From an uncultured Dehalococcoidia bacterium (GTDB lineage Bacteria > Chloroflexota > Dehalococcoidia > Lucifugimonadales > UBA2962): DNA of 64,000 bases. Below, one piece after another: positions 1,262 through 63,241 of the stretch. The position numbers and the translations under genes are program-made. A model generated the notes under the pieces. The model was not told the origin of the DNA and searched no databases. It saw only the letters and a program-made list of their open reading frames with translations. Each line of letters opens with the position of its first letter. Within the stretch, counting starts at the first letter, position 1. Location of the stretch: the NCBI GenBank assembly GCA_964637315.1, contig CAZWTT010000001.1:6939-70938 (forward strand), read 5' to 3'.

Positions 1262-2419
1262 CTAGAGCCAGCGCTTCAGCCAGCGCTTTTCGAACACCAC
1301 CTTGACGACGTGCCAGAGGTGGGACGGGTTTCGCAGCCTGACCTGGGGGGTGGGCTCGGCGTAGAAGTTGCCGCTGCCGTAGCCGGCCCTGCCGCCGCCC
1401 ACTTCTACGAAACATTCGCCGTTACCCGAGAACGCACCCTCCTCACACCGGCCAGTGGCTCTAGCTGCAATGGTCCGGGCCACGGCCCGGCCCTGGTGGC
1501 GGGCGAAGACTCCGGCCTTGGGCAGGGGCAGGCCCATCGACAACGGGATGCTAACCACGTCCCCGATTGCGAAGACATCGGGGTGCTTCGTCTCCATAGA
1601 TTGGCGATCGACGGGCACCCAGCCGCCGGCCTTGGCCAATCCGGCTGCCTGGATAACCGGGGGAACGACGTGGGGTGGTATGTAAACAAGCAGGCCAAAA
1701 GGAACGTCCTCGGCGTTTTCAAACCGGAGGATTCGGCCCGCCGCGTCGACCTCGGTCAACAGGTGCTTGGGGTGGTAGGTGATGCCGCGATCCTCGATTA
1801 GGGTCTTTATACCTGCCGAAACGTCGGGACCGGCGACACCCATGGGCCCGGGCTCGGGAGAGTACAGGGACACGGAGACACTGTCTCTGGCACGGCGCCT
1901 GCGCAGATCGTGGTCGAGGAGCATTGCAGCCGCGTAAGGGGCGGCCGGGCACTTGAACGGCATCCGGGCGACCAGCAAAACCAGTCGGCCTTCGGACAAC
2001 TCCAAGCGGGCGTCGCGGATGGCGGTGGCGCCCTCTAGCGAATACAGGTTGTGGCCGGCCTCGGACAGCCCCGGAACCTGCTCCGGCGCCAGGTCGGCGC
2101 CGAGAGCGACCACCAGGTAGTCGGCTATTAGCTCGGCCCCATCAACCGCCACGGTTCGGCGGTCAGGGTCGATGGTGGTGATCTCGCCTTGGACGACCTC
2201 GATCCCCTTCTTGGTCAGACGCGAGAGATCGCTGACGATGGCCCCGGGCTCGCGCAGTCCCACCTGAAGCCAGATCAGCGAGGGTGAAAAAACGTGCTGA
2301 GGTCCTTTGTCCACCAGGATAATGCGATGCTCTCGGCCCAGCCGGGAGCGAAGCTCGTTGGCCGTTACCAGCCCACCAACACCGCCTCCGAGGATGACAA
2401 CACTTTTCCCAGCCATCAA
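1262..2419 (-). CDS. FAD-dependent pyridine-nucleotide-disulfide oxidoreductase, sulfide:quinone oxidoreductase-like
   Basis: 385-aa ORF with an N-terminal Rossmann motif VVILGGGVGG and a second dinucleotide motif. Length and pattern fit SQR-type flavoproteins. Confidence 0.75.
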   Translation of the reverse strand: MMAGKSVVILGGGVGGLVTANELRSRLGREHRIILVDKGPQHVFSPSLIWLQVGLREPGAIVSDLSRLTKKGIEVVQGEITTIDPDRRTVAVDGAELIADYLVVALGADLAPEQVPGLSEAGHNLYSLEGATAIRDARLELSEGRLVLLVARMPFKCPAAPYAAAMLLDHDLRRRRARDSVSVSLYSPEPGPMGVAGPDVSAGIKTLIEDRGITYHPKHLLTEVDAAGRILRFENAEDVPFGLLVYIPPHVVPPVIQAAGLAKAGGWVPVDRQSMETKHPDVFAIGDVVSIPLSMGLPLPKAGVFARHQGRAVARTIAARATGRCEEGAFSGNGECFVEVGGGRAGYGSGNFYAEPTPQVRLRNPSHLWHVVKVVFEKRWLKRWL

Positions 2420-2484
2420 ATTACCCTCCTGCTTAAAGTCGTCATTGGAGTGTAATCATGTCGTCCGTCGAGTTCCCTCGTCAC

Positions 2485-2853
2485 CTAGAATGTCGCCACC
2501 TTGTCGGCCCATCGGGTCCATTCCGCAAACGTGTCCAAGGAGCCTCTACTCACGCCCTGAGCCAGTTTCTCGACGCCGATACCACAGGTGTCCAGACAAC
2601 TTCCTCAGGTACCGACCAACACCCGTTGCCGTAGGGCCACCGTCAGCATACGCTCCACGTTGTAAAAGCCGTTTGGCGTCTTCTGGCCGATCTTACCGCA
2701 GGCGACCGCGCCACCGACGAGGAAGACCCCCACCTCGTCGTCTTCGTTCTTGCTCAGGGCGTTGACCAGGCGCATGCCGTCGTACGAGCGGTTCGTGTCG
2801 TAGGGTGGATCGTTGAGGATGATGGGCGTCTTGCGTCGCGTGTCCATTGTCAC
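2485..2853 (-). CDS. DsrE/YchN-family sulfur-relay-like protein with an in-frame TGA (2605-2607); candidate Sec (UxxC)
   Basis: The ORF stops at TGA but the same frame continues as GSCLDTCGIGVEKLAQGV…WADKVATF to TAG at 2485. SD AAGGAGGAG (2860-2868) lies 6 nt before GTG 2853. Confidence 0.6.
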
Positions 2854-2867
2854 AGCGGTCTCCTCCT

Positions 2868-3275
2868 TCAAGAATCCCAGAGGGCGGCGCCCATGCCCTC
2901 GACGGCCAGCAGGTCATGCATGGGCTGCTCCATGGCGCGGGCGACGTCGGCGTGGGAGATGAGGTCCACCACTTCCTCGTCCTCCATGACTAGGAGCCGC
3001 TTTATCTTAGCGTGGGTCATGAGGCGGGCGGCGTCAGTGATGTCGTCCGTGGGCTTTGCAGAATGAACCGGACTGGACACGATTTCGCCGATCGGGTTGA
3101 CGGCCGGAGCCTGGTGCTCGGCGACGCACCGGACGACTATATCGCGATCGGTGACTATGCCCTTGACCCTCTTTTCGTCGGTCACTATCAGGCATCCGAC
3201 CCCCTCCCTTGCCGTCGTGGAGCCGGCACTTGCCACCGTCTCGCCTTGGTAGACCTTGACGACTATGGCGGACAT
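2868..3275 (-). CDS. CBS-domain pair protein
   Basis: Two CBS-like repeats (…GVGCLIVTDEKRVKGIVTDRDIV… / …MTHAKIKRLLVMEDEEVVDLISHADV…). ATG 3275 is chosen; the long upstream extension of the 267-aa ORF looks non-coding. Confidence 0.7.
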   Translation of the reverse strand: MSAIVVKVYQGETVASAGSTTAREGVGCLIVTDEKRVKGIVTDRDIVVRCVAEHQAPAVNPIGEIVSSPVHSAKPTDDITDAARLMTHAKIKRLLVMEDEEVVDLISHADVARAMEQPMHDLLAVEGMGAALWDS

Positions 3276-3383
3276 CGTGTCCGGCTCGTGTCCGGCGAAA
3301 TCGGGGTGACTCCGGCCCTGTCGCAAACGGCACGATAAGTATCCATCGCGACCGTGAGACGAGCGTGACGCCTGCGGGAGGCC

Positions 3384-3774
3384 GTGTGTCGTTTGCATGA
3401 CGCCGATCGGCCGGCCCGGGAGGCGGAGAAATTCATTCTCGATGACATGGCCATGGAGAACCCGGCCGCCGAGGTCACGACCGAGTCTGAGGCCGAGCCG
3501 GCAGACATGGACGGACGAGGCCTCTACCTGAATAATTGTGGTGCCTGCCATGGCCCGGTCGGCGAGAGACAGGACGGCTGGTAGCAGCGCCCACACTTGG
3601 CACCACCCGGATGGCCTGCTGTCCCGTACCGTGCGTGAAGGAGGCAGGAACGTCCCCAACCTGGGGATCACCAGCGGGATGCCGGCCTTTGGGGACCGGC
3701 TGTCCGACGACCAGATCGTGGTCGTGATCGAGTACAGTAGGATTTTCTGGGAGCCCGACCAGCGCGACTTCTAG
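3384..3774 (+). pseudogene. Class I c-type cytochrome, frame-disrupted, with no visible signal peptide
   Basis: CGACH haem motif at 3537-3551 in one frame, which stops at 3582-3584. The conserved continuation HTWHHPDG…MPAFGDRLSDDQIVVVIEY is in the +1 frame from 3592. Confidence 0.6.
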
Positions 3775-26720: not shown

Positions 26721-27627
26721 CGTCAACACCGTCACCGGCCCCGTACCTGCCGAAGAGTTGGGCAGGACCCTGCCGCATGAGCACCTCTTCATCGACCACA
26801 TGCTCGACAATTGGATGGCGTCCAATCTGCTCAATGACCCCGTCGTGGCGGAGCGCGAGATCGCTGTCGCCGTCGATGCGGGGGTGGTGACGGTAGTCGA
26901 TCAGACCGGTCGCGGCGTCCACCGTGATCCCATCATGCTCAAGGCACTTTCGGAAAAGACAGGAATGAATATCGTGACCGGCACCGGCTGGTTCAAAGAG
27001 CGTTTTTACGATCTTGATTTTCCCAAGATCAATGTTGACGGCCTCGCAGCGATCATGGTCAGTGATATCACCGAAGGGGTAGACGATACCGGCGTTCGCG
27101 CCGGTCTGATCGGTGAGATAAACGTCCACACCCGCTGGGTGACTCCCGGCGAGGAGCGCATGCACCGGGCCGCCGCGCGCGCGCAGACAGCGACCGGGGT
27201 GGCGCTGGCGATCACCGGCACACACACCTCCACCGCAATGGAGCAGCTCGACATCCTCGCCGAAGAGAGAATCGATCTGACCCGAGTCATCGTCGACCAC
27301 GTTAACGGAGTTGCCGACCATGACCTGCACACCGCCATAGCGAACCGAGGCCCGTTCACCTGCTTCAATACTTTTCCGGTGGCGAGCGACGAGTTGATGG
27401 ATCGCGACGCCCGCATGATCGGAGCGATGGTGGATGCGGGGCTGACCTGTCACGTTCTCGTTTCCACCGGGGTGTCCACTAAAAAGCACCTTTCCGCTTA
27501 CGGTGGTAAAGGGTACTCGTTCGCGGTCACCGGACTCCGTGAGCGCGTCCTCGCTGCCGGTGTGTCTGAGCAGGCCTGGGATCAGATCACCGTGGAAAAC
27601 CCACGAAGGGCGCTGGCTGGTGAATAA
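26713..27627 (+). CDS. Phosphotriesterase-family hydrolase, copy 2 (most divergent of the three)
   Basis: The GTG start overlaps the copy-1 stop by 8 nt. LPHEHLFIDH, …AGLIGEINVH…, …IVDHVN…. Confidence 0.85.
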   Translation: MSSVNTVTGPVPAEELGRTLPHEHLFIDHMLDNWMASNLLNDPVVAEREIAVAVDAGVVTVVDQTGRGVHRDPIMLKALSEKTGMNIVTGTGWFKERFYDLDFPKINVDGLAAIMVSDITEGVDDTGVRAGLIGEINVHTRWVTPGEERMHRAAARAQTATGVALAITGTHTSTAMEQLDILAEERIDLTRVIVDHVNGVADHDLHTAIANRGPFTCFNTFPVASDELMDRDARMIGAMVDAGLTCHVLVSTGVSTKKHLSAYGGKGYSFAVTGLRERVLAAGVSEQAWDQITVENPRRALAGE

Positions 27628-28555
27628 CGCCAATCCGCTGTCAGAGGTGATGACCGTGACCGGGCCGGTGAGTCCCGAGGACCTTGGCTTTACGCTCATG
27701 CACGAGCACGTGTTCCTGTCCATACTGGCCGACTACCTCGACACTGACCGGGTGCTTGACGACCCGGACTCGGCACGGACCGAGCTCCAGCTATTCAAGG
27801 ACGCCGGGGGTGGCACCGTGGTCGACCAGACCAACAGAGGGCTGGAGCAGAACCCGGCGGGCGTGCGGGAGATGGCGCGGAACACGGGGCTGAACATCGT
27901 GCTCGGGTGTGGCTGGTACCGGGAGCCTTTCTACGAGCCCCGTCTCCACCGTGAGACCACTGACCAGGTTGCCGACGAGATGATCCGCGATATCACCGAC
28001 GGCATCGACGGCACCGGCGTGCGCGCCGGGATCATCGGGGAGTTGGGCGCCCACGAGACCTGGGTGTCCCCGGTCGAAGAAAGAGTACTGCGAGCAGGCG
28101 CCCGCGCACACCTGCAGACCGGGCTGACCGTCACCACGCACGGCCTTTTCGCGCCGGTCGGCCTCGACCAGCTCGACGTGTTATACGAAGAGGGAGTCGA
28201 TGCGAAAAGGGTTGTCGTGGGCCATGCGCACGACTACCCGGCGCATGAGTACCATGCCGAGATCGCCCGGCGGGGGGCCTTCATCTCCTTCGACGGCATG
28301 GGTGAACGCAACTGCTATCTGTTGGAGCGAGACCTGGGCAATATCCGCAAAATAGTGGCCGCCGGCTATATCGACCACCTGCTCCTGTCTCACGACGTAT
28401 GCCTCAAGTCGGCCTACGTCACCAGCGGGGGAGGTGGCTATCAGTTCATCTCGACCAGGTTGTACCCGTATCTAAAGGAAATCGGCCTGACGGAGCAGCA
28501 GTTCGAGCAGATCATGGTGGACAATCCCCGTCGGGCTTTGACGGGCGAAGATTGA
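27620..28555 (+). CDS. Phosphotriesterase-family hydrolase, copy 3 (closest to copy 1)
   Basis: GTG 27620 repeats the 8-nt overlap geometry of the copy 1/2 junction; ATG 27650 is the alternative. LMHEHVFLS, …AGIIGELGAH…, …VVGHAH…. Confidence 0.85.
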   Translation: MNNANPLSEVMTVTGPVSPEDLGFTLMHEHVFLSILADYLDTDRVLDDPDSARTELQLFKDAGGGTVVDQTNRGLEQNPAGVREMARNTGLNIVLGCGWYREPFYEPRLHRETTDQVADEMIRDITDGIDGTGVRAGIIGELGAHETWVSPVEERVLRAGARAHLQTGLTVTTHGLFAPVGLDQLDVLYEEGVDAKRVVVGHAHDYPAHEYHAEIARRGAFISFDGMGERNCYLLERDLGNIRKIVAAGYIDHLLLSHDVCLKSAYVTSGGGGYQFISTRLYPYLKEIGLTEQQFEQIMVDNPRRALTGED

Positions 28556-29877
28556 CTCGGGTCCCCTCGCCCCCCGCACCTCGTCTCATCGCGCTGACGA
28601 CCTTGCTCGTCGCTGTGACATCGGCGGCGCTTGCGTGTACCCAGGCCGCCGGCGCCGACGCCTATGCGACCCCGACGGCCGTATGGGCGTTCACGGTCGT
28701 GCCGGTGGGCACACCCGTCCCAACCCCGACCCCGACCCCGGAGCCGACCCCGGTCAGCAATGAGCCTGACGTTATTCTCGGCCCCGGCTTTGAGCTGGCA
28801 GGTAACCTGTCGCAGGGCCGGTGGGGCCTGACGGCGACGGTGCTTGATGACGGGACGGTGATCGTGGTCGGAGGTCAGGAGCGCAGGAGCTTCTCCCGTA
28901 ACGCACCGATCGAGGCCGAGCTGCTGGCGGCTGGCGGCAACGAGTGGGTAAAGACCGAGCCGATGCAATATGAGCGGAGCTTTCACGTGGCCGCATCCCT
29001 TCCCGACGGGAGGCTGCTGGTCGCCGGTGGCTCCGGCCGCGAGGTGCTTACCGAGGAGGAGGCGCGGGACCGGCCCTTCAGGGGCAGGCAGGATCTTGAC
29101 ACCGCGGAGGTCTTTGACCCCGAAACCGGCGAATGGTCGGAGGTCGCCGAGATGCAGGCGGGCAGGCAAAGCGGCGGGGGAGCGCGGCTCCAGGACGGCC
29201 GCGTACTGGTGGTCGGCGGCGCCTCCGGGATCGACGTGATCGCCGATGCGGAAATGTACGTTCCGGACGAGGACGTGTGGATAGAGATCGCACCCATGGC
29301 GCAGGCCCGCAAGTTCCTCACCGCCACGTTGCTGGTCGATGGGAGGGTGTTGGTGGCGGGTGGGCAGACGCGAGAGACCGCGCTGGCATCAGCCGAGATC
29401 TACGATCCTGCCGACGGTTCATGGACATCCGTGGCCAATCTTGTCCGGCCCAGGTCGGGCCACTCCGCGTCGCTGATGCGTGATGGTCGGGTGGTGGTGG
29501 TCGGGGGGTCGGACCTCGGTGCCTCCAACGTGCTCGGCCCAGAGACCTCCGCCGAGATATACGACCCGGTTGCGGACGAGTGGACCCTGGTGACGGGCGA
29601 CCTGCGGCCGAGGCGGGGCCACGCGTCGGTCACGCTCTCCGACGGCAGGGTGGTGGTGGTCGGGGGCGAGGACCTGGTTGGCCTTTCAATCGCCGCCGTC
29701 GAAGTCTACGACCCCGCCGCCGACAGCTGGAAGATCGCTGCTTCACTCCCGGATGGGCGCAGCCTGCTGGCGGCCGCACTGCTGCCCGACGGCTCGGTTT
29801 TGATAGCCGGGGGAGGCACGGCCTCCGGGTTCGTCGACTTCCCGGACTACACGCTGCGGTTCCGAGTCCCGAACTAG
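28552..29877 (+). CDS. Kelch-repeat beta-propeller protein with a signal peptide and lipobox-like Cys
   Basis: TTG 28552 overlaps the PTE-3 stop. LLVAVTSAALAC, then a Thr/Pro linker, then repeated …AE(I/V)YDP…W…DGRV(L/V)V(V/A)GG units. Confidence 0.75.
   Translation: MTRVPSPPAPRLIALTTLLVAVTSAALACTQAAGADAYATPTAVWAFTVVPVGTPVPTPTPTPEPTPVSNEPDVILGPGFELAGNLSQGRWGLTATVLDDGTVIVVGGQERRSFSRNAPIEAELLAAGGNEWVKTEPMQYERSFHVAASLPDGRLLVAGGSGREVLTEEEARDRPFRGRQDLDTAEVFDPETGEWSEVAEMQAGRQSGGGARLQDGRVLVVGGASGIDVIADAEMYVPDEDVWIEIAPMAQARKFLTATLLVDGRVLVAGGQTRETALASAEIYDPADGSWTSVANLVRPRSGHSASLMRDGRVVVVGGSDLGASNVLGPETSAEIYDPVADEWTLVTGDLRPRRGHASVTLSDGRVVVVGGEDLVGLSIAAVEVYDPAADSWKIAASLPDGRSLLAAALLPDGSVLIAGGGTASGFVDFPDYTLRFRVPN
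29100..29171 (+). repeat. 72-nt direct repeat copy B (native Kelch-repeat coding sequence)
   Basis: Matches 23951-24022. Here it is in frame and encodes TAEVFDPETGEWSEVAEMQAGRQ, a normal Kelch blade. Confidence 0.9.
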
Positions 29878-35505: not shown

Positions 35506-35707
35506 GGGCTCCTCCAGATCGCCGAAATTGGCCGAAAGCGTATCACAGGATGGGCCACCGACCCCTGTTTAGTCGGGCGCGGACGAGTCGCGCCCTGAAT
35601 GGGTTAGACTACGCACGCTCACGAAGTCTGTTCCCAAAAAGATTAATGGGATGGTCCGTTCCCGACCCTTTACAGTGGGCGGCAGGCACACACACCAAGA
35701 GGTGGAT

Positions 35708-36907
35708 ATGCGCAGGCTCGCGCCCCACGCGTCGTTACTGATACTGGCCCTTGCTCTGACGGTCGCCGCCTCATGCGCCGGCGACGCGGCGGCTCCTTCA
35801 CCATCGTCAGGTGGTGAGGTAGCCGCGGAAACCGGAGGCGCCAGCGAGACCGCCAAGGTAACAACCGCCGCCGGGCCCGGCAAGTTCTCAGTCACCGACA
35901 AGATGGTCGACGCTCGCGGTTACCACGCCGCCGTCAAAATGGCGGACGGCAGGGTGATGGCAATCGCCGGTAAGAGTCGGGGAGGCGCGTCGGCCTGGAA
36001 GGCGTCGTCCATCGAGGCCACCGCCATCTACGATCCGACCACCGGCAAGTGGACCGACTCGGCCCTCCTGTCGACAGTGCGGGAGCATCCAACAGGCCAC
36101 CTCCTGCTCGACGGCCGGGTTATCGTGATCGGTGGCTCCGCCCTGCGCCAGTTGCCGTTGGCCAGCGTCGAGGTCTACGACGTGGCCGCCGATTCTTGGA
36201 CCGAGGTCGCTCCCATGTCGATCGGGCGGTGGCGACACAGCTCGGTGATGTTCGAAGACGGCCGCATCATGGTGGTCGCCGGTGAGACGGTGGACCTCGT
36301 GCTCGTTGCAGGGGCGGAGATCTACGATCCGACAACCGACACGTGGACGCCCGCCGGATCGCTTACCGAGGCCCGCGCACTGCACACCGTGACGTTGCTT
36401 CAGGACGGCCGGGTTCTGGCGGTGGGTGGGGGCAAGCGCGACTCACCTTACATTAAGACGCCGGAGATCTACGACCCGGCCACCGGCGAGTGGACTCAGG
36501 GGGCGCCGACCCAGGTCGCGCACTCGGCGCATGCAGCCACGCTGCTTCCCGACGGCCGGGTGCTGATCACGGGCGGCAAGGGGAAAGTGACCCTGACGGA
36601 GATCTATGACCCCGAGGCCGACGCCTGGACGACCCTGGGTCCAATGTCCGAGTGGCGCGCCGAGCACGCCGCCGTCCTGCTTGCCGACGGCCGCGTCATG
36701 GTCACCGGAGGCATTGGCAAGGTTGCGACATCCGATATTTTTGATCCGGCGACCGATACTTGGTCCACTGGAGCCAACATGGTCGAGACGCGCTACGCAC
36801 ACTCGATGACGCTGCTCGACGATGGCAGGGTCCTCGTCATCGGCGGTAACTCCACCGACGGCGACCAGCGGGGAGTGACCACGGAGGTCGAGGTGTGGGA
36901 GCCTTAG
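35708..36907 (+). CDS. Kelch-repeat beta-propeller protein with a signal peptide and lipobox-like Cys
   Basis: SD AAGAGGTGG before ATG 35708. LLILALALTVAASC, then six or more …(I/V)YDP…W…DGRV(L/M)V(I/T)GG blades. Confidence 0.75.
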   Translation: MRRLAPHASLLILALALTVAASCAGDAAAPSPSSGGEVAAETGGASETAKVTTAAGPGKFSVTDKMVDARGYHAAVKMADGRVMAIAGKSRGGASAWKASSIEATAIYDPTTGKWTDSALLSTVREHPTGHLLLDGRVIVIGGSALRQLPLASVEVYDVAADSWTEVAPMSIGRWRHSSVMFEDGRIMVVAGETVDLVLVAGAEIYDPTTDTWTPAGSLTEARALHTVTLLQDGRVLAVGGGKRDSPYIKTPEIYDPATGEWTQGAPTQVAHSAHAATLLPDGRVLITGGKGKVTLTEIYDPEADAWTTLGPMSEWRAEHAAVLLADGRVMVTGGIGKVATSDIFDPATDTWSTGANMVETRYAHSMTLLDDGRVLVIGGNSTDGDQRGVTTEVEVWEP

Positions 36908-39179: not shown

Positions 39180-41483
39180 ATGACAACCACCTACGAGCCA
39201 AACCAGGTTCTTTCGAATCAGTCCTTCAACGTGGTCGGGACCCGGCCGATTCGGCACGACGGCGCCGACAAGGTCACGGGCCGGGCCAAGTACGGCGCCG
39301 ACTACACGGCCGTGGGATTGCTACACGCCAAGACGTTGCGCAGTCCCCACGCCCACGCTCGAATCAAGTCGGTCGACACGTCCAAGGCCGAGGCGCTTGC
39401 CGGGGTAAGAGCCGTTGTTACGTCAAAGGACTTCCCGCCAGCCAAGGACACCGCCGACTTCGGTCTGGGCGGACAGCCGATGGACAGGTTCCGGGGCAAT
39501 CTGCTGGCTGGCGACAAGGCGCTTTACCGGGGCCATGCGATCGCCGCAGTGGCGGCCACCAACCCTCATATAGCGGAAGAGGCGGTCGGGTTGATCGAGG
39601 TGGACTACGAAGTGCTGCCAGCCATACTAACGGCTCCGGAAGGCATGGCCGACGACGCTCCCATCCTCATACCCGACCTGACCACCCAGGAGTTCGGCAA
39701 CGACACCGGTCGCAACTCCAACATCGCCGACCATTTCCAGCACAAGTTGGGCGACATTGACAAGGGTTTCGCCGACGCCGACGTGGTGGTGGAACGCACC
39801 TTTGACACCAAGACCGTGCACCAGGGCTACATCGAGCCTCACAACGTGACGGCGCTTTGGAACGACGACGATCGTATCCACGTGTACTGCAGTACCCAGG
39901 GCTCGTTCACGGTTCGGGCGGCGATTTCCGAAGCCTTGGCGATCCCCGTCTCCAAGATCAGATGTACGCCGATGGAGATCGGCGGTGGCTTCGGGGGGAA
40001 GATCGCTGTTTACAGTGAACCGGTTGCCGCGATGCTCTCCAAAAAGGCAGGCCACAGGCCGGTGAAGATGGTCATGTCAAGGTCCGAGGTCTTCGAGGGC
40101 ACGGGCCCAACCAGCGGCTCGCACATGATTATCAAGATGGGCGCCACCAAGGACGGCAAGATAGTCGCAGCCCTGGCCGACCTGCAAATGGAGGCGGGTG
40201 CATACCCCGGCTCTCCCGTGGGAGCGGCGGCCATGTGTATCTTTTCCGCCTACGACGTGGACAACGTCGTGATCGACGGCTACGACGTCGTGGTCAACAA
40301 GCCCAAGGCGGGCGCCTACCGGGCACCCGGGGCGCCCAACGCGGCGTTCGCGGCCGAGCAAGTGGTCGACGAACTGGCGCAGAGGTTGGGTATCGACCCC
40401 TTGGAGCTTCGCCTGAAAAACGCGGCCAAAGAGGGGGTCCGCCGTCCGGACGGACCCGTCCACCCGCGTATCGGCTGTGTCGAGGTGCTGGAGGCCATGC
40501 GCGACCATGACCACTACAGTTCACCCATCGCCCCCGCTAGGCGCGGCGGCAATACCGGGCGCGGGGTGGCCGTTGGGTACTGGTTTAACATCGGCTTCGC
40601 CTCCGCGTGCAACATCGCCGTCAACAACGACGGCACCGTCAACCTGATAGAAGGCTCCACCGACATCGGCGGAAGCAGGGCTTCCATCGCTATGCAGGCG
40701 GCCGAGGTGCTCGGAATCGCGGCTGAGGAGGTCATTCCCCAGGTCGTGGACACCGACTCCATCGGATACACAGCCATCACCGGCGGCAGCCGGACTACCT
40801 TCGCCACCGGTTGGGCGGCCTACGAGGCGGCCCAAGACGTAAAGCGGCAGGTCGTCGAGCGAGCGGCCCAGATCTGGGGCGTGGAGCCCGACTCGGTGGA
40901 GATGCAAGACGGGGTCGTTCGCTCCAAGACTGACACCGAGCTGAACATGACGTTCAAGGAACTGGCTGGGCAGATCAACGACACCGGAGGACCCATCGTC
41001 GGTCGCGCGGCGGTCGACCCCGCCGGGGCCGGTGGTTCCTACTCCGGCCAGATCGTCGACGTCGAGGTGGATCCGGAGACGGGCAAGACCGACGTGTTGC
41101 GATTCACCATTGTCCAGGATGCGGGCAAGGCCATCCACCCCGCCTACGTCGAGGGCCAGATGCAAGGCGCCGCCGCCCAGGGCATCGGTTGGGCGCTGAA
41201 CGAGGAGTACTATTACTCCGAGGACGGCAAAATGGACAATGCCAGCTTCCTCGACTATCGCATGCCGACCACCCTCGACCTGCCCATGATTGATACGGTC
41301 ATCGTCGAGGTCGCCAACCCGGGCCATCCGTTCGGGGTCAGAGGCGTAGGCGAGGCCCCCATCGTCTCGCCGCAAGCCGCGGTGGCCAACGCCATCGCGG
41401 ACGCCACGGGCCTGCGCATGGCCTACCTTCCGATCAACTCCACGGCAATAATGGAGGCGAGCTGGGTCGAAGGTGCGAGCTAG
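39180..41483 (+). CDS. Molybdopterin-binding large subunit, xanthine-dehydrogenase/aldehyde-oxidase family, paralogue 1
   Basis: 767 aa; …RPIRHDGADKVTGRAKYGADY…, …GGGFGGK…, …AGAYRAPGAPN…, …VRGVGEAPI…. Confidence 0.9.
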   Translation: MTTTYEPNQVLSNQSFNVVGTRPIRHDGADKVTGRAKYGADYTAVGLLHAKTLRSPHAHARIKSVDTSKAEALAGVRAVVTSKDFPPAKDTADFGLGGQPMDRFRGNLLAGDKALYRGHAIAAVAATNPHIAEEAVGLIEVDYEVLPAILTAPEGMADDAPILIPDLTTQEFGNDTGRNSNIADHFQHKLGDIDKGFADADVVVERTFDTKTVHQGYIEPHNVTALWNDDDRIHVYCSTQGSFTVRAAISEALAIPVSKIRCTPMEIGGGFGGKIAVYSEPVAAMLSKKAGHRPVKMVMSRSEVFEGTGPTSGSHMIIKMGATKDGKIVAALADLQMEAGAYPGSPVGAAAMCIFSAYDVDNVVIDGYDVVVNKPKAGAYRAPGAPNAAFAAEQVVDELAQRLGIDPLELRLKNAAKEGVRRPDGPVHPRIGCVEVLEAMRDHDHYSSPIAPARRGGNTGRGVAVGYWFNIGFASACNIAVNNDGTVNLIEGSTDIGGSRASIAMQAAEVLGIAAEEVIPQVVDTDSIGYTAITGGSRTTFATGWAAYEAAQDVKRQVVERAAQIWGVEPDSVEMQDGVVRSKTDTELNMTFKELAGQINDTGGPIVGRAAVDPAGAGGSYSGQIVDVEVDPETGKTDVLRFTIVQDAGKAIHPAYVEGQMQGAAAQGIGWALNEEYYYSEDGKMDNASFLDYRMPTTLDLPMIDTVIVEVANPGHPFGVRGVGEAPIVSPQAAVANAIADATGLRMAYLPINSTAIMEASWVEGAS

Positions 41484-41519: not shown

Positions 41520-41876
41520 ATGGCAACGGTCTTCATACCATCACTCATGCAGGATCTGACGGATGGTGAAAAGACCGTCGAGGTGCCCGGTGGCACGGTG
41601 CGTGAGATCGTCAACGGCCTGGAGGGCAAATACCCTGGAGTGAAGGACCGCCTGATGGACGGCTTTCGTCTGAAGGGAAACATTAACGTTGCGGTAGATG
41701 GCGAGATCAGCCCCGTAGGTGTCCTCGGCGAGGTCGGAGAGAGTAGCGAGGTGCATTTTCTGCCCGCGATAGCTGGCGGGTCACTGCGTGATAGCGAATG
41801 CCAGCCCGTATCGACCATCAGTCTTTTCAGGCGGTCGCGGGCCGGCGCGGAGCATTACTACGGGGAGAAGCTATGA
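41520..41876 (+). CDS. ThiS/MoaD/CysO-family beta-grasp sulfur-carrier protein with a 31-codon extension after Gly-Gly
   Basis: MATVFIPSLMQDLTDGEKTVEV…KYPGVKDRLMDG…VHFLPAIAGG (GG at 41775-41780). The frame stays open to TGA 41874-41876, which overlaps the next ATG. Confidence 0.7.
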   Translation: MATVFIPSLMQDLTDGEKTVEVPGGTVREIVNGLEGKYPGVKDRLMDGFRLKGNINVAVDGEISPVGVLGEVGESSEVHFLPAIAGGSLRDSECQPVSTISLFRRSRAGAEHYYGEKL

Positions 41877-44179
41877 CCACTATTTACGAGCCGAACGTCG
41901 TACTGGCCACCGACGAATACAACGTCGTCGGGACTAGGCCCATCCGTCCCGACGGCGCGGACAAGGTGACCGGCAAGGCCAAGTACGGTGCCGACTACAA
42001 CGCCACCGGGCTACTGTACGCCAAGGTGCTGCACAGTCCGCATGCCCATGCCCGCATCAAGTCGATAGACACCTCCAAGGCGGAGGCGTTTCTCGGCGTG
42101 GCGGCGGTGGTGACCGGCGCCGACATGCCCACCACTAGGGAGTCCGACCCGGCCGACTTCGGCCTCGGCCCTCAGCCGATGAAGTACCTGCGCAACAACG
42201 CCATCGCCAGGGGCAAGGTCCTCTATAGCGGCCATGCGGTGGCCGCCGTTGCTGCCGTCAACACCCACGTGGCGGAAGAGGCTATGGGTCTGATCGAGGT
42301 GGATTACGAAGTCTTGCCGTCCGTCCTGACGGTGCAGGATGCGATGAAGGACGACGCGCCGGTTCTGCACGACGATCTGTTCACCACCGAGTTCGGCAAT
42401 AAGACCGACCGTAACACCAATATCGCCAACCACTTCCAACACAAGATGGGCGATCTGGAGAAGGGCTTCGCCGAGGCCGACGTGGTAGTGGAACGCGAGT
42501 TCGACACCGCCACCGTCCACCAGGGCTACATAGAGCCCATGAACGTCACCGCGCTGTGGAACGACGACGACCGGGTGCACGTGTGGATGAGCACTCAGGG
42601 CCCGTTCCAGTTCCGCGACGCCATCGCGATAGCCCTGGAACTGCCCCAGTCGCAGGTTAAGGTGACGCCGATGGAGATCGGCGGCGGATTCGGCGGCAAG
42701 TTCCCCCTGTACCACGAGATCGCTGCGGTCCTGCTGTCCAAGAAGGCGGGTCGCCCGGTCAAGATCGCGATGACTCGCAAAGAGGCCTTCGAGAGTTCGG
42801 GGCCGACCTCTGGCTCGCATATGCGCATGAAGATCGGTGCGACCAAAGAGGGTAAAATCACCGCTGCCGAGACCGAGTTGATCTTCGAAGCGGGGGGCTT
42901 CCCCGGTTCGCCGGTGGACGCCGGGGCGATGTGTGTGTTCTCGGCCTATGACATTCCCAATGTCGTTATCGACGGCTACGACGTCGTCGTCAACAAGCCG
43001 AAGACAGCGGCCTATCGGGCTCCCGGCGCGACGCATGCGGCGATGGCGGCCGAGACGGTGGTGGACGAGTTGTGTGAAAAGCTTGGTCTCGACGTTCTCG
43101 ACTTCAGGCTGCAAAACTGCGCCAAGGAGGGCACACGACGAGCGGACGGCCCGGTGAACCCAAAGATCGGCGGTTTGGAGACCCTGGAGGCGGTCAAGGC
43201 CCACGCGCACTGGAACGCTCCTCTCACCCCCGCCAAGCGCGGCGGCAAGGTTGGTAGGGGAATCGCCCTCGGCTACTGGTTCAATGCCGGTATGCAGTCG
43301 GCCGCCACCATCAGCGTCAACGGTGATGGGACCATCAACCTGGTTGAGGGCTGTCCCGACATCGGTGGTAGCAGGGCCTCCATCGCCATGCAGGCGGCTG
43401 AGGTGCTCGGTATCAGCGCCGAGGAGGTCAACCCGCAGGTAGTGGACACCGACTCCATCGGTTTCACCTTCGGCACCGGCGGCTCGCGCACCACGTTTGC
43501 GACGGGCTGGGCGGCCTATGAGGCGGCCAACGACGTCAAGCGTCAACTGGTCGATAGGGCGGCCAAGATCTGGGGCGTCGACCCCGATTCGGTGGAGATG
43601 GCGGAAGGTATGGTCCGTTCCAAGACCGACACCGAGCTGAACATGACATTTAAGGCCCTTTCGGCCCAGCTCAACGACACCGGCGGCCCGATCGTCGGTC
43701 GCGGTGCCGTGAATCCGTCCGGCGTGGGCGGCGCCTTAGCCGCAACCGTAGCCGATGTAGAAGTAGACCCGGAGACGGGCAAGGTCGACTTGCTTCGTTT
43801 CACCATCGCTCAGGACGCCGGCAAGGCCGTCCACCCCGCCTATGTCGAGGGACAGCTACAGGGAGGAGCCGCGCAGGGCATTGGGTGGGCTCTGAACGAG
43901 GAGTACTATTACTCCGAGGACGGTCGCTTGGACAACCCCACGTTCCTGGACTACCGTATTCCGACTGCCCTCGACTTGCCGATGATCGACACCATCGTCG
44001 TCGAGGTGCCCAACCCCGGCCATCCGTACGGTGTCCGCGGCGTGGGTGAGGTCTGCATCGTGCCGCCACCGGCGGCGCTGGCAAACGCCATCCACGACGC
44101 CGTCGGAGTGCGCATGGACGTACTTCCAATGAACCCCGCAGCGGTCATGAGCGCCCTGTGGAAGCAGGGTGGCTCCTAG
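41873..44179 (+). CDS. Molybdopterin-binding large subunit, paralogue 2
   Basis: ATG 41873 gives MTTIYEPNVV…, parallel to paralogue 1 (MTTTYEPNQV…), and the two are colinear throughout. …TAAYRAPGATH…, …VRGVGEVCI…. Confidence 0.9.
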   Translation: MTTIYEPNVVLATDEYNVVGTRPIRPDGADKVTGKAKYGADYNATGLLYAKVLHSPHAHARIKSIDTSKAEAFLGVAAVVTGADMPTTRESDPADFGLGPQPMKYLRNNAIARGKVLYSGHAVAAVAAVNTHVAEEAMGLIEVDYEVLPSVLTVQDAMKDDAPVLHDDLFTTEFGNKTDRNTNIANHFQHKMGDLEKGFAEADVVVEREFDTATVHQGYIEPMNVTALWNDDDRVHVWMSTQGPFQFRDAIAIALELPQSQVKVTPMEIGGGFGGKFPLYHEIAAVLLSKKAGRPVKIAMTRKEAFESSGPTSGSHMRMKIGATKEGKITAAETELIFEAGGFPGSPVDAGAMCVFSAYDIPNVVIDGYDVVVNKPKTAAYRAPGATHAAMAAETVVDELCEKLGLDVLDFRLQNCAKEGTRRADGPVNPKIGGLETLEAVKAHAHWNAPLTPAKRGGKVGRGIALGYWFNAGMQSAATISVNGDGTINLVEGCPDIGGSRASIAMQAAEVLGISAEEVNPQVVDTDSIGFTFGTGGSRTTFATGWAAYEAANDVKRQLVDRAAKIWGVDPDSVEMAEGMVRSKTDTELNMTFKALSAQLNDTGGPIVGRGAVNPSGVGGALAATVADVEVDPETGKVDLLRFTIAQDAGKAVHPAYVEGQLQGGAAQGIGWALNEEYYYSEDGRLDNPTFLDYRIPTALDLPMIDTIVVEVPNPGHPYGVRGVGEVCIVPPPAALANAIHDAVGVRMDVLPMNPAAVMSALWKQGGS

Positions 44180-52526: not shown

Positions 52527-53678
52527 GTGGAAGATAATCCCACCGATAGACACCGCGAAGGGTCGGACTCTCGACGCTCCGGCCTGAGGAACCTCTCCGG
52601 CGATCGCCGCCGGCTGTCCGTGCTGCGGCGCACCAACCAGGCCAGGCAGCGCCTTACGCTCATGGCGATCGGTCTGGCCCTGCTGGTCGTCGCCGGAATC
52701 CTGACCGCTGGTTTTGTCATCGTGTTCGTCCTGCCCCCCATGCAGGCCATCGTTCGCGTCAACGACGTCACCTACTCGCGAGGAGACCTAGTCAATGCGC
52801 TTCGGGCCCAGCAGGCGCAGTCACGGCTGTTCGGTCTGGAATTCCAGGCCAGCCAGGAAATCTTTGACGCGCTACGGCTGTTCGTTGAGGATGAGATACT
52901 GTCGCAGGTTGCGGCCAAGTACGGCATCGTGGTCGAAGAGGAAGAGATCGACCGGCTTATCGAGAGTGACCTGCTAGCCACCGATCTGCACCTCGATCCG
53001 GAGACCATCCGGATCGGATTCGACGAGTTGTACGGTCAGCGTCTTAACGAACTGCAGGTGTCTGAGGCCGACCACCGCAAACTCACCGGCAGGTCCATCC
53101 TCCGAGCCAAGTTTCGCGAGTTTGTGGGGGAGCAGGTTCCCCGCATCGCCGAGCAGGTCCACTACCACCGGATCATGATGACGGTCGGCGCCGAAGTGGA
53201 CATCATGCTGGTCAAACTCAAGGACGGCCTCGCGGAGGCCACTACCCCGGAGGAGCGCCAGGCGGTGTGGTGGGAGATCGTTCGAGAGTTCTCACTGGAC
53301 GACCCCGAGACCGTGCGGATGGGGGGAGACGCCGGCTGGATGCCGTTGGGTTCCACCGATGTCTACGCCGAAACCATCCTCAACCTCGAGATGGGAGAGG
53401 TCAGCGCCCCGATCACCGACTTCGAAAGTCCCAAAGCGGTCCTGTTTTTCATGGTCTCCGAGCGTGACGCCGCACGGGAGTTGTCGCCATCCGACCTTGA
53501 GGACATGAAGTCGCGCGCCCTCCAAAACTGGATCAACGACGAGCGGGACAACCACGACATAGACGCGGCCTTCGACTCCGAAATATACTCGTGGATGCTG
53601 GAGCAACTCCAGCAGACCGCGATTGCCACGCCGACCATCCAGGCCAACCCCTTCGCCAACTCCGGCGGAGGCTTCTAG
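52527..53678 (+). CDS. Membrane-anchored SurA-N / PpiC-type peptidyl-prolyl isomerase
   Basis: Basic N-terminal tail, one TM segment (LMAIGLALLVVAGILTAGFVIVFVL), a chaperone-like helical region and a parvulin-like segment (…HYHRIMM…GGDAGWMPLGS…GEVSAPI…). Confidence 0.7.
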   Translation: MEDNPTDRHREGSDSRRSGLRNLSGDRRRLSVLRRTNQARQRLTLMAIGLALLVVAGILTAGFVIVFVLPPMQAIVRVNDVTYSRGDLVNALRAQQAQSRLFGLEFQASQEIFDALRLFVEDEILSQVAAKYGIVVEEEEIDRLIESDLLATDLHLDPETIRIGFDELYGQRLNELQVSEADHRKLTGRSILRAKFREFVGEQVPRIAEQVHYHRIMMTVGAEVDIMLVKLKDGLAEATTPEERQAVWWEIVREFSLDDPETVRMGGDAGWMPLGSTDVYAETILNLEMGEVSAPITDFESPKAVLFFMVSERDAARELSPSDLEDMKSRALQNWINDERDNHDIDAAFDSEIYSWMLEQLQQTAIATPTIQANPFANSGGGF

Positions 53679-53688
53679 GCGCTGTGAC

Positions 53689-54036
53689 ATGAAGGCCAAA
53701 CTTCTACTGCAAGCGAGGCTGAACCACCTGCAAGAGGGCGCGTGAGACGCTCTCGGGCCTAGGGAGTGACCTCGTCGAGTGCGACCCTTTCTTAAGGAAC
53801 CGTTGACGGGATTCGAGCTGCGGGCGCTGATCGGAGGCCGGCCGGTGCGTGAATTTTTCTCGCTCAAGAGCCCGTCATTCCCCAAGTTGGGGCTCGACCC
53901 CGACGGCCTCACTGAAGCTCAGATGATCGCCTTGATGACCGATGCGCCACGGTTCAAACGGCGGGCGCTGGTTGTCGCGGGCGACCGCGTAATCATGGGC
54001 AATGATGGGACCGCCTTCAAACAGGCCCTCGGATAA
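53689..54036 (+). pseudogene. ArsC/Spx/YffB-family thiol-redox protein: TGA at the first Cys of CxxC plus two compensating frameshifts
   Basis: ATG 53689 is in frame 1. Frame 2 reads FYCKRG[TGA 53720-22]TTCKRARETLSGLGSDLVECD. Frame 1 resumes at 53779 with PFLKEPLTGFELRAL…FKRRALVVAGDRVIMG…. Confidence 0.55.
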
Positions 54037-54095: not shown

Positions 54096-54704
54096 CTACT
54101 TTACGGCGTTGCCGTTGACGGAGGGCTCGACCACGGGCTTTTCGGGTTCCTCGACCTGCGCGCCCAGCGCATCGATGCCCCTGCGCACCTGGCCGAGCAT
54201 CTGCGACAGACGCTCCTCGATGCTGAACAGTACCTCGCGAGAGTACTGGTCGGCTCCCTCGCGGCGGACGGCGGCGGTCGCCTCGGCGTCGTCGATCGTG
54301 CGGAAGACCTGCTGCTGCGCCTCTTGGACGATGTCATTGGCCTGCCGGTGGGCTTCGTCCTTGATCTCCTGAGCTTTGATCTCGGCCGACTTGACGATCT
54401 CGGTCTCTGCGACCAGTGACTCATACTCGTTGCGAGCCGCCGTGGTGATGGCCGCGACCTCCTGATTGGCCGACTCTCGCAGGCGTTTGGCCTCGAGATA
54501 CGCCTGGTTGACGATGCTCTCTTTTTGCTTGAGAACCTCTCCGGCCTCCAGCACGTCGTGGGGGACCGACTCCCGAAGATCAGCCGCGATGGCGGTCAGC
54601 TTCCCAGAGTCGACCATCACCTTCTTGCGCATGCCCAGGACCTTTGTCGAGTTCCTGGCAAGCTCGTTCAGCTCGTCGAGAATGTTGTCTATCGCGTGGG
54701 ACAT
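54096..54704 (-). CDS. Coiled-coil protein of unknown function (ATPase-stalk-subunit-like repeats)
   Basis: Ala/Glu/Gln/Lys-rich heptad-like sequence. SD AAGGAGAG precedes ATG 54704. The gene is co-directional with and downstream of coaD. Confidence 0.55.
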   Translation of the reverse strand: MSHAIDNILDELNELARNSTKVLGMRKKVMVDSGKLTAIAADLRESVPHDVLEAGEVLKQKESIVNQAYLEAKRLRESANQEVAAITTAARNEYESLVAETEIVKSAEIKAQEIKDEAHRQANDIVQEAQQQVFRTIDDAEATAAVRREGADQYSREVLFSIEERLSQMLGQVRRGIDALGAQVEEPEKPVVEPSVNGNAVK

Positions 54705-54725
54705 CCGGCTCTCCTTCATTCGTAC

Positions 54726-62179: not shown

Positions 62180-63241
62180 CTAAGCGAAAGTGAGTGCCCT
62201 TGCCGGGTTGTGGATCAGGATGTTGTCGAGATGGTCCTGTGTGAACCCACGATTGCGCATGCGTCGCACGATGCTTTCGAGTATGTGGGCGTAACCCTTG
62301 CCTCCGTAGGCGGTGTTGTCCACCTTTAGGCACACGTCGTGGGCGATGGTGATCCGCTCGCCGTAGCCTTCGGATAGCAGGTACTCGATCGAGTCCATGC
62401 GCTGTACGTCGCTGACGCTGCTCGTCTCGATGTCTCCCGACCGGTAAGTCCCGCTGGTGTCCTCCGAGCCAAATCTGTCGTACTCGAGGTAGCAGCCGGT
62501 GTCGGCCAGTTCCTTGATGGCGGACATGGGCCGGATGTTATCCAGATGGCCCATGATGACATTTTCGGCATCGGCCCCAGCGTCCGTCAGGATCTTGATG
62601 ATCTCCAGCGGAGTGTCGGGGTGGATGCCGGGATGGATGAGGATAGGAGCGCCAGTCTCCACCTGGGCCTGTGCTGAGGCACGAAGCACCTTGCGCATGT
62701 TCTCGGTCAGCGGCGTGTGGTTGCCCACCTCGCCGATGACGCCGGACTTGACCCCGGTGTCGTTCACCCCGACGGTGACGTCGTCGATGATGTGCTGGGC
62801 GATCGACTCCTCGCTGCGCTCATCCATGTCGGCAGGGTGCGCCTGGGGGACGTAATGGCTGGCCCCCATGACCACGTTGAGCCCGGTGGCGCGTGAGATG
62901 CGGGCCAGCGCGAGAGGGTCTCGGGCGATACCGATGCTCGTTGTATCGACAAGGCTCTGACCGCCGGCGTAGCGGTATTTAAGCACTTCCTCGATTGCGA
63001 AGCGCTCGTCCAGAAGCTGCTGGTTGTGTTTGCTAGTGTAGAATCTGGACCTGATTTTTCCCAGCTTGTCCATCGTCACCGGCTGGTCGACGTACCAGCG
63101 CTCGCTGGCCTCCTCCGGCATCTGGAAGTAGCAGCGCAAGTCGATCAGCAGGTGTTCGTGTGTCAAGGTGATGCCGAGCGACCCCGGCTCCAACTCGCCG
63201 AGAACGGTCTGGACTCTTCCCGTCGGTCCCTTTGGGCTCAT
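62180..63241 (-). CDS. Phosphotriesterase-family hydrolase, copy 4 (unlinked, longer)
   Basis: LGITLTHEHLLIDL, …SGVIGEVGNH…, …ILIHPG…, …IMGHLD…, …IAHDV…. Confidence 0.85.
   Translation of the reverse strand: MSPKGPTGRVQTVLGELEPGSLGITLTHEHLLIDLRCYFQMPEEASERWYVDQPVTMDKLGKIRSRFYTSKHNQQLLDERFAIEEVLKYRYAGGQSLVDTTSIGIARDPLALARISRATGLNVVMGASHYVPQAHPADMDERSEESIAQHIIDDVTVGVNDTGVKSGVIGEVGNHTPLTENMRKVLRASAQAQVETGAPILIHPGIHPDTPLEIIKILTDAGADAENVIMGHLDNIRPMSAIKELADTGCYLEYDRFGSEDTSGTYRSGDIETSSVSDVQRMDSIEYLLSEGYGERITIAHDVCLKVDNTAYGGKGYAHILESIVRRMRNRGFTQDHLDNILIHNPARALTFA

What the first reader, a model, noticed from the sequence alone, without database searches (positions are those of the whole stretch)
53689..54036. 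ArsC/Spx-family gene with TGA at the catalytic-Cys position and a clean hairpin 12 nt downstream: second candidate selenoprotein
**What the sequence shows**
- Frame 2 reads FYCKRG-[TGA 53720-53722]-TTCKRARETLSGLGSDLVECD.
- This lines up residue by residue with the ArsC/Spx/YffB N-terminal pattern (aromatic-Y-x4-C-x-T-C-K-K/R-A-R-x-x-L…D).
- The TGA falls on the first Cys, giving U-T-T-C.

**Downstream hairpin**
- Stem GAGGGCG (53734-53740) pairs with CGCUCUC (53748-53754): 7 bp with one G-U.
- The 7-nt loop is CGUGAGA. The loop starts 18 nt after UGA and has G in its second position.
- This spacing and the NGUG loop start are the same as in the DsrE-like candidate 51 kb away.

**Complication**
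- The ATG (53689) and the C-terminal ORF (53779-54036) are both in frame 1, while the Sec-containing segment is in frame 2.
- Two compensating indels are therefore needed: one at the AAA run (53698-53700) and one at the CCC run (53785-53787).
- That points to homopolymer miscalls, but real decay is also possible.
Basis: partly seen in the sequence, partly recalled or inferred. Interest (0 to 1): 0.75.

Follow-up and report, generated by a model that had tools for sequence, protein, structure and literature searches.

The report
Broken selenoprotein gene (ArsC/Spx-like)
This is a real but frame-broken, apparently decaying copy of a known selenocysteine-containing ArsC/Spx-like redox gene that is intact in about 80 related marine Dehalococcoidia species, so it is most likely a young pseudogene and not a working selenoprotein or a sequencing error.

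Summary
An ATG lies in frame 1. A frame-2 stretch reads FYCKRG-TGA-TTCKRARETLSGLGSDLVECD. A 7-bp hairpin starts 11 nt after the TGA. An 85-aa ArsC C-terminal ORF lies back in frame 1.

The gene descends from a known selenoprotein family, the Spx-like "arsenate reductase 2" with a UxxC motif. In 79 of 80 Dehalococcoidia/SAR202 species genomes the homologue has TGA at this Cys position, in one unbroken frame. Eleven of these are positional orthologues.

The two frame breaks are real. Ten independent assemblies, and contigs from five further studies, show no indel differences. Homopolymer miscalls are excluded.

A sister lineage (about 5% diverged) is also broken, but at different places. The ancestor was therefore intact.

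Both lineages also show other signs of decay:
- they have lost the family-invariant Pro (125/125 homologues keep it);
- they lack the family's covarying SECIS hairpin (12-15 bits against 39-69 bits);
- they score low against family HMMs;
- they evolve faster than intact orthologues, with dN/dS about 0.58.

Best reading: a recently inactivated selenoprotein gene. Recoding by frameshifting is unsupported but cannot be fully excluded.

The parts
53689..53700 (+). Ancestral start codon and first codons (ATG AAG GCC AA[A]) in frame 1. One extra base within AAAC (53698-53701) throws the following codons into frame 2. This lesion is specific to the window lineage.
   Evidence: The sister lineage L011 has GCC GAC TTC TAT in frame with its GTG start. 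Orthologues start M-x-(E)-A-D-F-Y.
53702..53784 (+). Frame-2 segment FYCKRG-U-TTCKRARETLSGLGSDLVECD. It corresponds to strand beta1, the UxxC redox motif, helix alpha1 and strand beta2 of the ArsC/Spx fold.
   Evidence: It adds about 10 bits to the PF03960 match. It aligns with the UxxC and CxxC homologues.
53720..53722 (+). TGA at the first Cys of the CxxC motif: the former selenocysteine codon.
   Evidence: TGA stands at the same column in 79 of 80 Dehalococcoidia genomes and in 5 of 5 metagenome homologues checked.
53734..53754 (+). SECIS-like hairpin GAGGGCG / loop CGUGAGA / CGCUCUC. Its 3' arm sits where the family SECIS 3' arm sits. Its 5' arm lies 6 nt upstream of the family position. 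It does not fit the family consensus.
   Evidence: fold; family model R1: window 12.2 bits, with the stem skipped.
53785..53792 (+). CCCTTTCT. It carries 2 extra bases relative to the family spacing (D-[LF]-F-K) and to the sister lineage (GACCTTTTTAAG). This shifts the reading back to frame 1. By position it is also an in-phase X XXY YYZ heptamer (C CCT TTC).
   Evidence: There is no stimulatory structure downstream.
53779..54036 (+). Frame-1 ORF of 85 aa (P0001): the C-terminal two thirds of the ArsC/Spx domain, ending in TAA TAA.
   Evidence: (PF03960, 28.7 bits), and (127 homologues).
53965..53967 (+). GCG (Ala) where every homologue has the Pro of the [RK]-R-P motif.
   Evidence: Pro in 125 of 125 homologues that cover the site; the window has Ala and the sister lineage has Val.

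Best explanation
The locus is the positional orthologue of a selenocysteine-containing, Spx-like ArsC-family thiol/selenol oxidoreductase (UxxC motif). That gene is nearly universal in marine Dehalococcoidia/SAR202.

In this lineage the gene has recently been inactivated. One extra base after codon 3 puts the Sec-containing N-terminal third into the +1 frame. Two extra bases at CCCTTTCT put the rest back into the frame of the start codon. As the sequence stands, translation from the ATG would stop after 18 codons, at the frame-1 TGA (53743-45).

**Shown:**
- the sequence is real;
- the family is Sec-containing and intact elsewhere;
- the lesions are lineage-specific;
- conserved protein and RNA features have been lost.

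**Inferred:**
- no functional full-length protein is made;
- constraint was already relaxed before the split from the sister lineage.
For: 1. **The sequence is real.** Ten assemblies from different samples are identical over 53660-53830. They differ from the window at 0-1 positions over 3-6 kb. Contigs of runs from five other studies cover the break points with no gaps.
2. **The family is Sec-containing and intact.** 79 of 80 species genomes have TGA at this column, and all are in a single frame from start to stop. Eleven share the order ArsC-like / 207-aa gene / CoaD / RsmD, and one of them also has the SurA-like gene upstream. Five of five truncated metagenome homologues are also UxxC in one frame.
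3. **The sister lineage is broken elsewhere.** L011/L012 (about 5% diverged) carries +13 nt after FY and -1 nt at CTAGGG. The common ancestor was therefore intact and the lesions are independent.
4. **The invariant Pro is lost.** It is Ala in the window and Val in the sister lineage, against Pro in 125 of 125 homologues.
5. **The family SECIS is missing.** The family element is an 8-bp stem with a GNN triloop, 15 nt after the UGA. It is 90.5% paired, 6 of 8 pairs show compensatory changes, and 0 of 500 shuffles reach the observed values. The model gives 39-69 bits for intact members, 12.2 for the window and 15.0 for the sister lineage.
6. **Family HMM scores are low.** TIGR01617 gives 27 bits (window), 45 (sister) and 60-76 (intact).
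7. **Evolution is faster.** dN/dS of the C-terminal ORF is 0.58, not distinguishable from neutral (p = 0.2). The neighbouring SurA-like gene gives 0.15. At equal CoaD divergence (about 63.5% identity), window pairs share 37-45% ArsC identity, against 46-58% for intact pairs.
Against: - The 84-nt frame-2 segment has only 2 substitutions between the two lineages (2.4%). The C-terminal ORF has 8.2%, and dS is about 0.12-0.15.
- All indels cluster in the first ~100 nt, with none in the 245-nt C-terminal ORF (Fisher p = 0.003).
- In both lineages the frameshifts sum to a multiple of 3, so the start codon and the C-terminal ORF stay in one frame.
- The only two SNPs seen in the window population lie in the C-terminal ORF, and both are synonymous.
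- These points are compatible with very recent inactivation. They would also fit some residual use of the C-terminal ORF.
- Expression could not be tested: no RNA run holds the gene.
Confidence: 0.78

Rival explanations
1. The C-terminal 85-aa ORF (GTG 53779, with GGGAG 11 nt upstream) is still translated on its own. It would be a truncated ArsC-like protein without the redox centre, with a residual or new function. The N-terminal Sec part would be dead.
For: There are no indels and no stops in the 245-nt C-terminal ORF in either lineage, while at least 4 indel events lie in the first ~100 nt. Both population SNPs are synonymous. Gene callers predict it as a gene.
Against: It would lack strand beta1, helix alpha1 and strand beta2 of the fold. 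The invariant Pro is lost. dN/dS of 0.58 is not different from neutral. The upstream GGGAG reads GGGGG in the sister lineage, where the gene caller picks another start. No expression data exist.
Confidence: 0.12
2. The gene is functional through recoding. The ribosome would shift +1 near AAA-C, insert Sec at UGA 53720 using the 53734-53754 hairpin, and shift -1 at the in-phase heptamer C CCU UUC (53785-91). The product would be the full 115-aa selenoprotein.
For: C CCT TTC is in the correct phase for an X XXY YYZ -1 slip. I estimate about a 4% chance of this in the 34-nt overlap of the two open frames. The sister lineage has a G5 run at its own shift site. The Sec/hairpin core is the best conserved part. 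The frames stay net-compensated in both lineages.
Against: The shift sites differ between the two lineages and are absent from all 80 intact relatives. There is no stimulatory structure downstream of the heptamer (z = +0.77). There is no recognisable +1 site. Runs of identical bases are also where indel mutations arise. The loss of the Pro, the off-consensus SECIS and the faster rate all point to decay.
Confidence: 0.04
3. Sequencing or assembly error (homopolymer miscalls) in an otherwise intact selenoprotein gene.
For: Both lesions lie at 3-base runs.
Against: The same sequence is found in 10 independent assemblies and in contigs from five further studies. The sister lineage is broken in two independent assemblies. 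Runs of 3 bases are not prone to error in short-read data.
Confidence: 0.02

Closest known systems
'Arsenate reductase 2' (ArsC 2; cd03032 ArsC_Spx; UxxC), a selenoprotein family of the Global Ocean Sampling selenoproteome (Zhang and Gladyshev 2008, PMC2398784)
   Same: ArsC/Spx fold, a UxxC motif with Sec at the first Cys, and marine origin. The intact relatives found here score closest to the Spx-like model TIGR01617 (60-76 bits) and are UxxC.
   Different: The window copy is split over two frames. It lacks the family's SECIS consensus and the invariant Pro. I did not align it to the published GOS sequences, so identity of the two families is inferred from the motif and the domain model.
NCBIfam NF041106 'ArsC family (seleno)protein' (arsenate reductase-like, UxxC; PMC13188914)
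   Same: It is an ArsC-family UxxC selenoprotein.
   Different: The window scores 16 bits and the intact relatives 20-47 bits, against a cut-off of 85. This is a different subfamily.
Arsenate reductase ArsC selenoprotein, UxxS (TIGR00014; Sargasso Sea, PMC1088965)
   Same: It has the same Pfam family, PF03960, and Sec at the catalytic Cys position.
   Different: Its motif is UxxS, not UxxC. TIGR00014 scores 25 bits against a cut-off of 106.
Spx / MgsR / YffB-type ArsC-family proteins (Cys forms)
   Same: They share the N-terminal Y-x4-C-x-x-C-[KR]-[KR]-A pattern and the domain length of about 115 aa.
   Different: There is no evidence here for RNA-polymerase binding. The relatives are Sec forms from Dehalococcoidia.

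Membership tests
ArsC/Spx superfamily (Pfam PF03960) | Domain match above the gathering score | tested here: met
   The stitched protein scores 38.1 bits and the C-terminal ORF alone 28.7 bits, against a cut-off of 24.
ArsC/Spx superfamily (Pfam PF03960) | N-terminal C/U-x-x-C after strand beta1 | tested here: met
   Frame 2 reads FYCKRG-U-TTC-KRA. It aligns with the CxxC and UxxC homologues.
ArsC/Spx superfamily (Pfam PF03960) | Conserved Pro of the [RK]-R-P motif | tested here: not met
   The window has RRA and the sister lineage RRV, against Pro in 125 of 125 homologues.
Sec-containing Spx-like ArsC ('ArsC 2', UxxC) of Dehalococcoidia | TGA at the first Cys column | tested here: met
   TGA is at 53720-22, the same column as in 79 of 80 genomes.
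Sec-containing Spx-like ArsC ('ArsC 2', UxxC) of Dehalococcoidia | One continuous reading frame from start codon through the UGA to the stop | tested here: not met
   The start and the C-terminus are in frame 1 and the Sec segment is in frame 2. This is confirmed in independent assemblies. All 80 relatives are continuous.
Sec-containing Spx-like ArsC ('ArsC 2', UxxC) of Dehalococcoidia | Family SECIS: 8-bp stem plus GNN triloop starting 15 nt after the UGA | tested here: not met
   Model R1 gives 12.2 bits for the window, with the stem skipped, against 39-69 bits for intact members. An alternative hairpin exists at 53734-53754.
Sec-containing Spx-like ArsC ('ArsC 2', UxxC) of Dehalococcoidia | Positional orthology | tested here: met
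   The same neighbours (207-aa gene, CoaD, RsmD) flank the gene in 11 genomes, and the SurA-like gene lies upstream in L049.
NCBIfam TIGR01617 (Spx/MgsR) and NF041106 (ArsC_rel_Se_1) | Score above the curated cut-off | tested here: not met
   TIGR01617 gives 26.6 bits against 75.05. NF041106 gives 16.2 bits against 85.
Active bacterial selenoprotein gene | Sec machinery (selA, selB, selC, selD) in the genome | not testable with these tools
   The window holds no tRNA gene at all. None of the 29 large ORFs scanned carries a SelA, SelB or SelD domain. The rest of the genome is not available. An intact DsrE-like Sec candidate suggests the machinery exists.
Programmed -1 ribosomal frameshift site | In-phase slippery heptamer, a stimulatory element and conservation | tested here: not met
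   The heptamer C CCT TTC is in phase. There is no downstream structure. The site is absent from the sister lineage and from 80 relatives.

The most novel reading that the evidence does not exclude
Two sister lineages independently ended up with the same odd layout: the start codon and the C-terminal domain in one frame, and the Sec/SECIS segment in the +1 frame. That segment is the best conserved stretch.

The layout would then be maintained and not decaying. Either the selenoprotein is made by double frameshifting plus Sec insertion, or the UGA-hairpin segment has become a regulatory leader (for example selenium-responsive) for the C-terminal ORF.
Probability: 0.04. Interest if true: 0.85.

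Novelty: already known. Interest (0 to 1): 0.25.

Why it matters
For annotation, this locus should be called a disrupted (pseudo)gene of a selenoprotein. It should not be called an 85-aa 'ArsC' protein, a new selenoprotein or an assembly error.

More broadly, the comparison shows that marine Dehalococcoidia/SAR202 almost universally encode this Spx-like ArsC as a Sec (UxxC) protein. Its SECIS is sharply defined and shows covariation. Gene callers systematically truncate the gene: many of the 127 database homologues start just after the TGA.

A lineage that is losing one selenoprotein, while apparently keeping another (the DsrE-like gene), is a small natural example of selenoproteome erosion. 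It is not a new kind of system.

Tried and rejected
1. **Homopolymer miscalls.** Rejected by independent assemblies and runs.
2. **Frame-1 read-through with Sec at 53743.** The sister lineage has a single TGA in frame 1. However, this reading adds no ArsC signal (41.5 bits against 42.2 for the C-terminal part alone, and 51.9 for the frame-2 stitch). The window also has a second TGA at 53767.
3. **Start at GTG 53684 in frame 2.** It is followed by TGA at codon 3 in both lineages. The orthologues' N-termini (M-x-(E)-A-D-F-Y) match the ATG/frame-1 start instead.
4. **TGA reassigned as a sense codon.** TGA ends 48 of the 135 long open frames in the window. Reading it as sense in frame 2 would lose the ArsC C-terminus.
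5. **-1 programmed frameshift at C CCT TTC.** See the rival explanations.
6. **The 51-nt stretch identical between the two lineages as a sign of special constraint.** Gaps of similar length between substitutions occur in the neighbouring gene. The excess conservation of the segment is only marginal (my estimate, p about 0.03 against the C-terminal rate).
7. **Searches that found nothing.**
   - The first genome-contig scan with the stitched protein.
   - Both metagenome-contig scans.
   - The word-based protein search, which found only the window's ORF and one relative.
   - The search for RNA runs.
   - Two family alignments too diverse for the search for related loci.

Full report
**1. The observation**

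The window reads exactly as described.
- ATG lies at 53689 and opens frame 1, which reads MKAKLLLQARLNHLQEGA and stops at TGA 53743-45.
- Frame 2 reads RPNFYCKRG-TGA(53720-22)-TTCKRARETLSGLGSDLVECDPFLRNR-stop.
- Frame 1 reopens and gives an 85-aa ORF at 53779-54036.
- The hairpin GAGGGCG (53734-40) / CGCUCUC (53748-54), with loop CGUGAGA, is part of the minimum-free-energy fold. By itself it is only modestly better than shuffles (z = -1.65).

A protein stitched across the two frame changes, with C in place of U, hits Pfam ArsC (PF03960) at 38.1 bits. The C-terminal ORF alone gives 28.7 bits. A straight frame-1 read-through adds nothing over the C-terminal ORF (27.9 bits). Frame 2 is therefore the original coding frame of the N-terminal third.

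**2. Is the sequence right?**

Yes.
- The exact 85-aa product is on record on 23 contigs. Ten of them, from different samples and two assembly efforts, are identical to the window over 53660-53830. Over 3-6 kb they differ from it at 0-1 positions.
- Contigs of public marine runs from five further studies cover 53570-53847 in pieces, with no gaps.
- The idea of homopolymer miscalls is refuted.

**3. What family is it?**

A HMMER search with the 85-aa ORF against 1.84 billion representatives gave 127 relatives, the best at 49% identity. Many are about 98 aa long and start at [MV]-[RK]-A-x-L, just after the position of the Cys pair.

On the DNA, five of five such genes continue upstream through a TGA in the same frame to a start codon. 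One example is MPKATLYWWTR-U-STCSKVRAWL.

A scan of one genome per species returned 80 loci. Nearly all are marine Dehalococcoidia/SAR202 MAGs.
- 79 have TGA at the first Cys (UxxC) and one has Cys.
- All are continuous from start to stop.
- Eleven have the same neighbours as the window (a 207-aa gene, CoaD and RsmD). One of them also has the SurA-like gene upstream. These are positional orthologues, and all are intact.

The intact proteins score nearest to the Spx-like model TIGR01617 (60-76 bits). They fall well below the cut-off of NF041106. This corresponds to the 'Arsenate reductase 2, cd03032, UxxC' selenoprotein family of the GOS study (PMC2398784). ArsC selenoproteins with UxxS, and NF041106 with UxxC, are also in the literature (PMC1088965, PMC13188914). 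The kind is therefore known.

**4. The family SECIS**

The 60 nt around the UGA align without gaps in 76 distinct sequences. An 8-bp stem with a GNN triloop starts 15 nt after the UGA.
- 90.5% of cells are paired.
- 6 of 8 pairs show compensatory changes.
- 0 of 500 shuffles reach the observed values, and slid registers collapse.

A covariance model of the element gives 39-69 bits for intact members, including five that were not used to build it. It gives only 12.2 bits for the window and 15.0 bits for the sister lineage, and in both the stem is skipped.

The cause is visible in the sequence. The Arg codon that forms the 5' arm is AGA or AGG in all but one of the 76 family sequences, but CGT here. 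Whether it could still bind SelB is unknown.

**5. The sister lineage and the history of the lesions**

L011/L012 come from two independent assemblies, one of them TARA. They differ from the window at about 5% of positions.

I aligned both lineages on the conserved GCC-RAC-TTC-TAY and on the family spacing D-[LF]-F-K.
- The window has +1 base (AAAC) and +2 bases (CCCTTTCT).
- The sister lineage has +13 nt after TTC TAT and -1 nt at CTAGGG.
- None of these lesions is shared.

The common ancestor therefore had an intact gene: MKA[ND]FY[CY]KRG-U-TTCKRARETLSGLGSDLVECDLFKEPLTG... This step is inference from the alignments.

Two features are shared by both lineages and so are older than their split:
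- loss of the Pro of [RK]-R-P, which is Ala or Val here against Pro in 125 of 125 homologues;
- loss of the consensus SECIS.

**6. Rates**

Between the two lineages, the C-terminal ORF has 12 nonsynonymous and 7 synonymous differences. This gives dN/dS of 0.58, not distinguishable from neutral (p = 0.2). The neighbouring SurA-like gene gives 0.15.

At the same CoaD divergence (about 63.5% identity), intact orthologue pairs share 46-58% identity in this protein. Pairs that include the window share 37-45%.

TIGR01617 scores fall from 60-76 bits (intact) to 45 (sister lineage) and 27 (window).

**7. Conclusion and what remains odd**

The simplest account is a selenoprotein gene whose constraint relaxed in this clade and which was then broken independently in two sublineages.

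Four things do not fit perfectly.
- The frame-2 segment has only 2 substitutions in 84 nt.
- All indel events lie in the first ~100 nt and none in the C-terminal 245 nt (Fisher p = 0.003).
- The frameshifts sum to a multiple of three in both lineages. I estimate the chance of this at about 1/4.
- The only two SNPs in the window population lie in the C-terminal ORF, and both are synonymous.

These points leave room for residual use of the C-terminal ORF (about 12%). They leave much less room for recoding (about 4%). C CCT TTC is in phase as a -1 slippery heptamer. Against that, there is no stimulatory structure, the site is not conserved in the sister lineage, and all 80 intact relatives need no shift.

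**8. Sec machinery**

The window holds no tRNA gene. None of the 29 large ORFs scanned carries a SelA, SelB or SelD domain. The rest of the genome is out of reach.

The DsrE-like gene on the minus strand (about 2470-2871) reads through its TGA (2605-2607) in one frame and covers PF02635 positions 5-116 of 116. This suggests, but does not prove, that the organism still decodes Sec.

By orthology and habitat, the organism is a marine (deep-sea or vent) Dehalococcoidia/SAR202-type bacterium. This is inference.

Noticed in passing
window 2470-2871 (minus strand); TGA at 2605-2607: A DsrE-like gene reads ...VLVGT-U-GSCLDTCGIGVEKLAQG...ATF* in one frame. The joined protein covers Pfam DsrE positions 5-116 of 116 across the TGA, so it is an apparently intact Sec candidate. 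It lies next to a pyridine-nucleotide-disulphide oxidoreductase (1262-2419, minus strand) and a CBS-domain protein (2868-3671, minus strand).
   Followed up: partly
L019-L098 (80 Dehalococcoidia/SAR202 genomes), about 25-90 nt into each match: 79 of 80 species carry this Spx-like ArsC gene with TGA (UxxC). Its SECIS is ungapped and shows covariation: an 8-bp stem and a GNN triloop, 15 nt after the UGA. Public gene calls are mostly truncated to start after the TGA.
   Followed up: yes
window 53961 and 54000 (also 53792 in run X6): Ten assemblies cover 3-6 kb each. The only differences from the window are G53961A and C54000A. Both lie inside the ArsC C-terminal ORF and both are synonymous third positions. 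The neighbouring genes show none.
   Followed up: partly
window 53684-53692: A mini-ORF GTG ACA TGA has a stop that overlaps the ATG at 53689 (ATGA). It is preceded by GGAGG at 53668-72. The arrangement is conserved in the sister lineage as GTG ACG TGA / GTG. It might be a translational-coupling arrangement after the SurA-like gene.
   Followed up: no
window 27503-28555 and 62180-63241; 28399-29877 and 35651-36907; 39180-41483 and 41798-44179: Three gene families occur in pairs: two phosphotriesterase-family proteins, two Kelch-repeat proteins, and two molybdopterin (xanthine/CO-dehydrogenase-type) large subunits.
   Followed up: no
window 54096-54719 (minus strand): A 207-aa protein has no Pfam match, yet it is conserved (44-51% identity) and syntenic next to CoaD in 11 Dehalococcoidia genomes.
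   Followed up: no
L011 353-712: In the sister lineage, frame 1 is open from the GTG start to the stop with a single TGA (418-420). This looks like a one-frame selenoprotein gene. However, the N-terminal part adds no ArsC signal in that frame, so it is a trap for annotation.
   Followed up: yes
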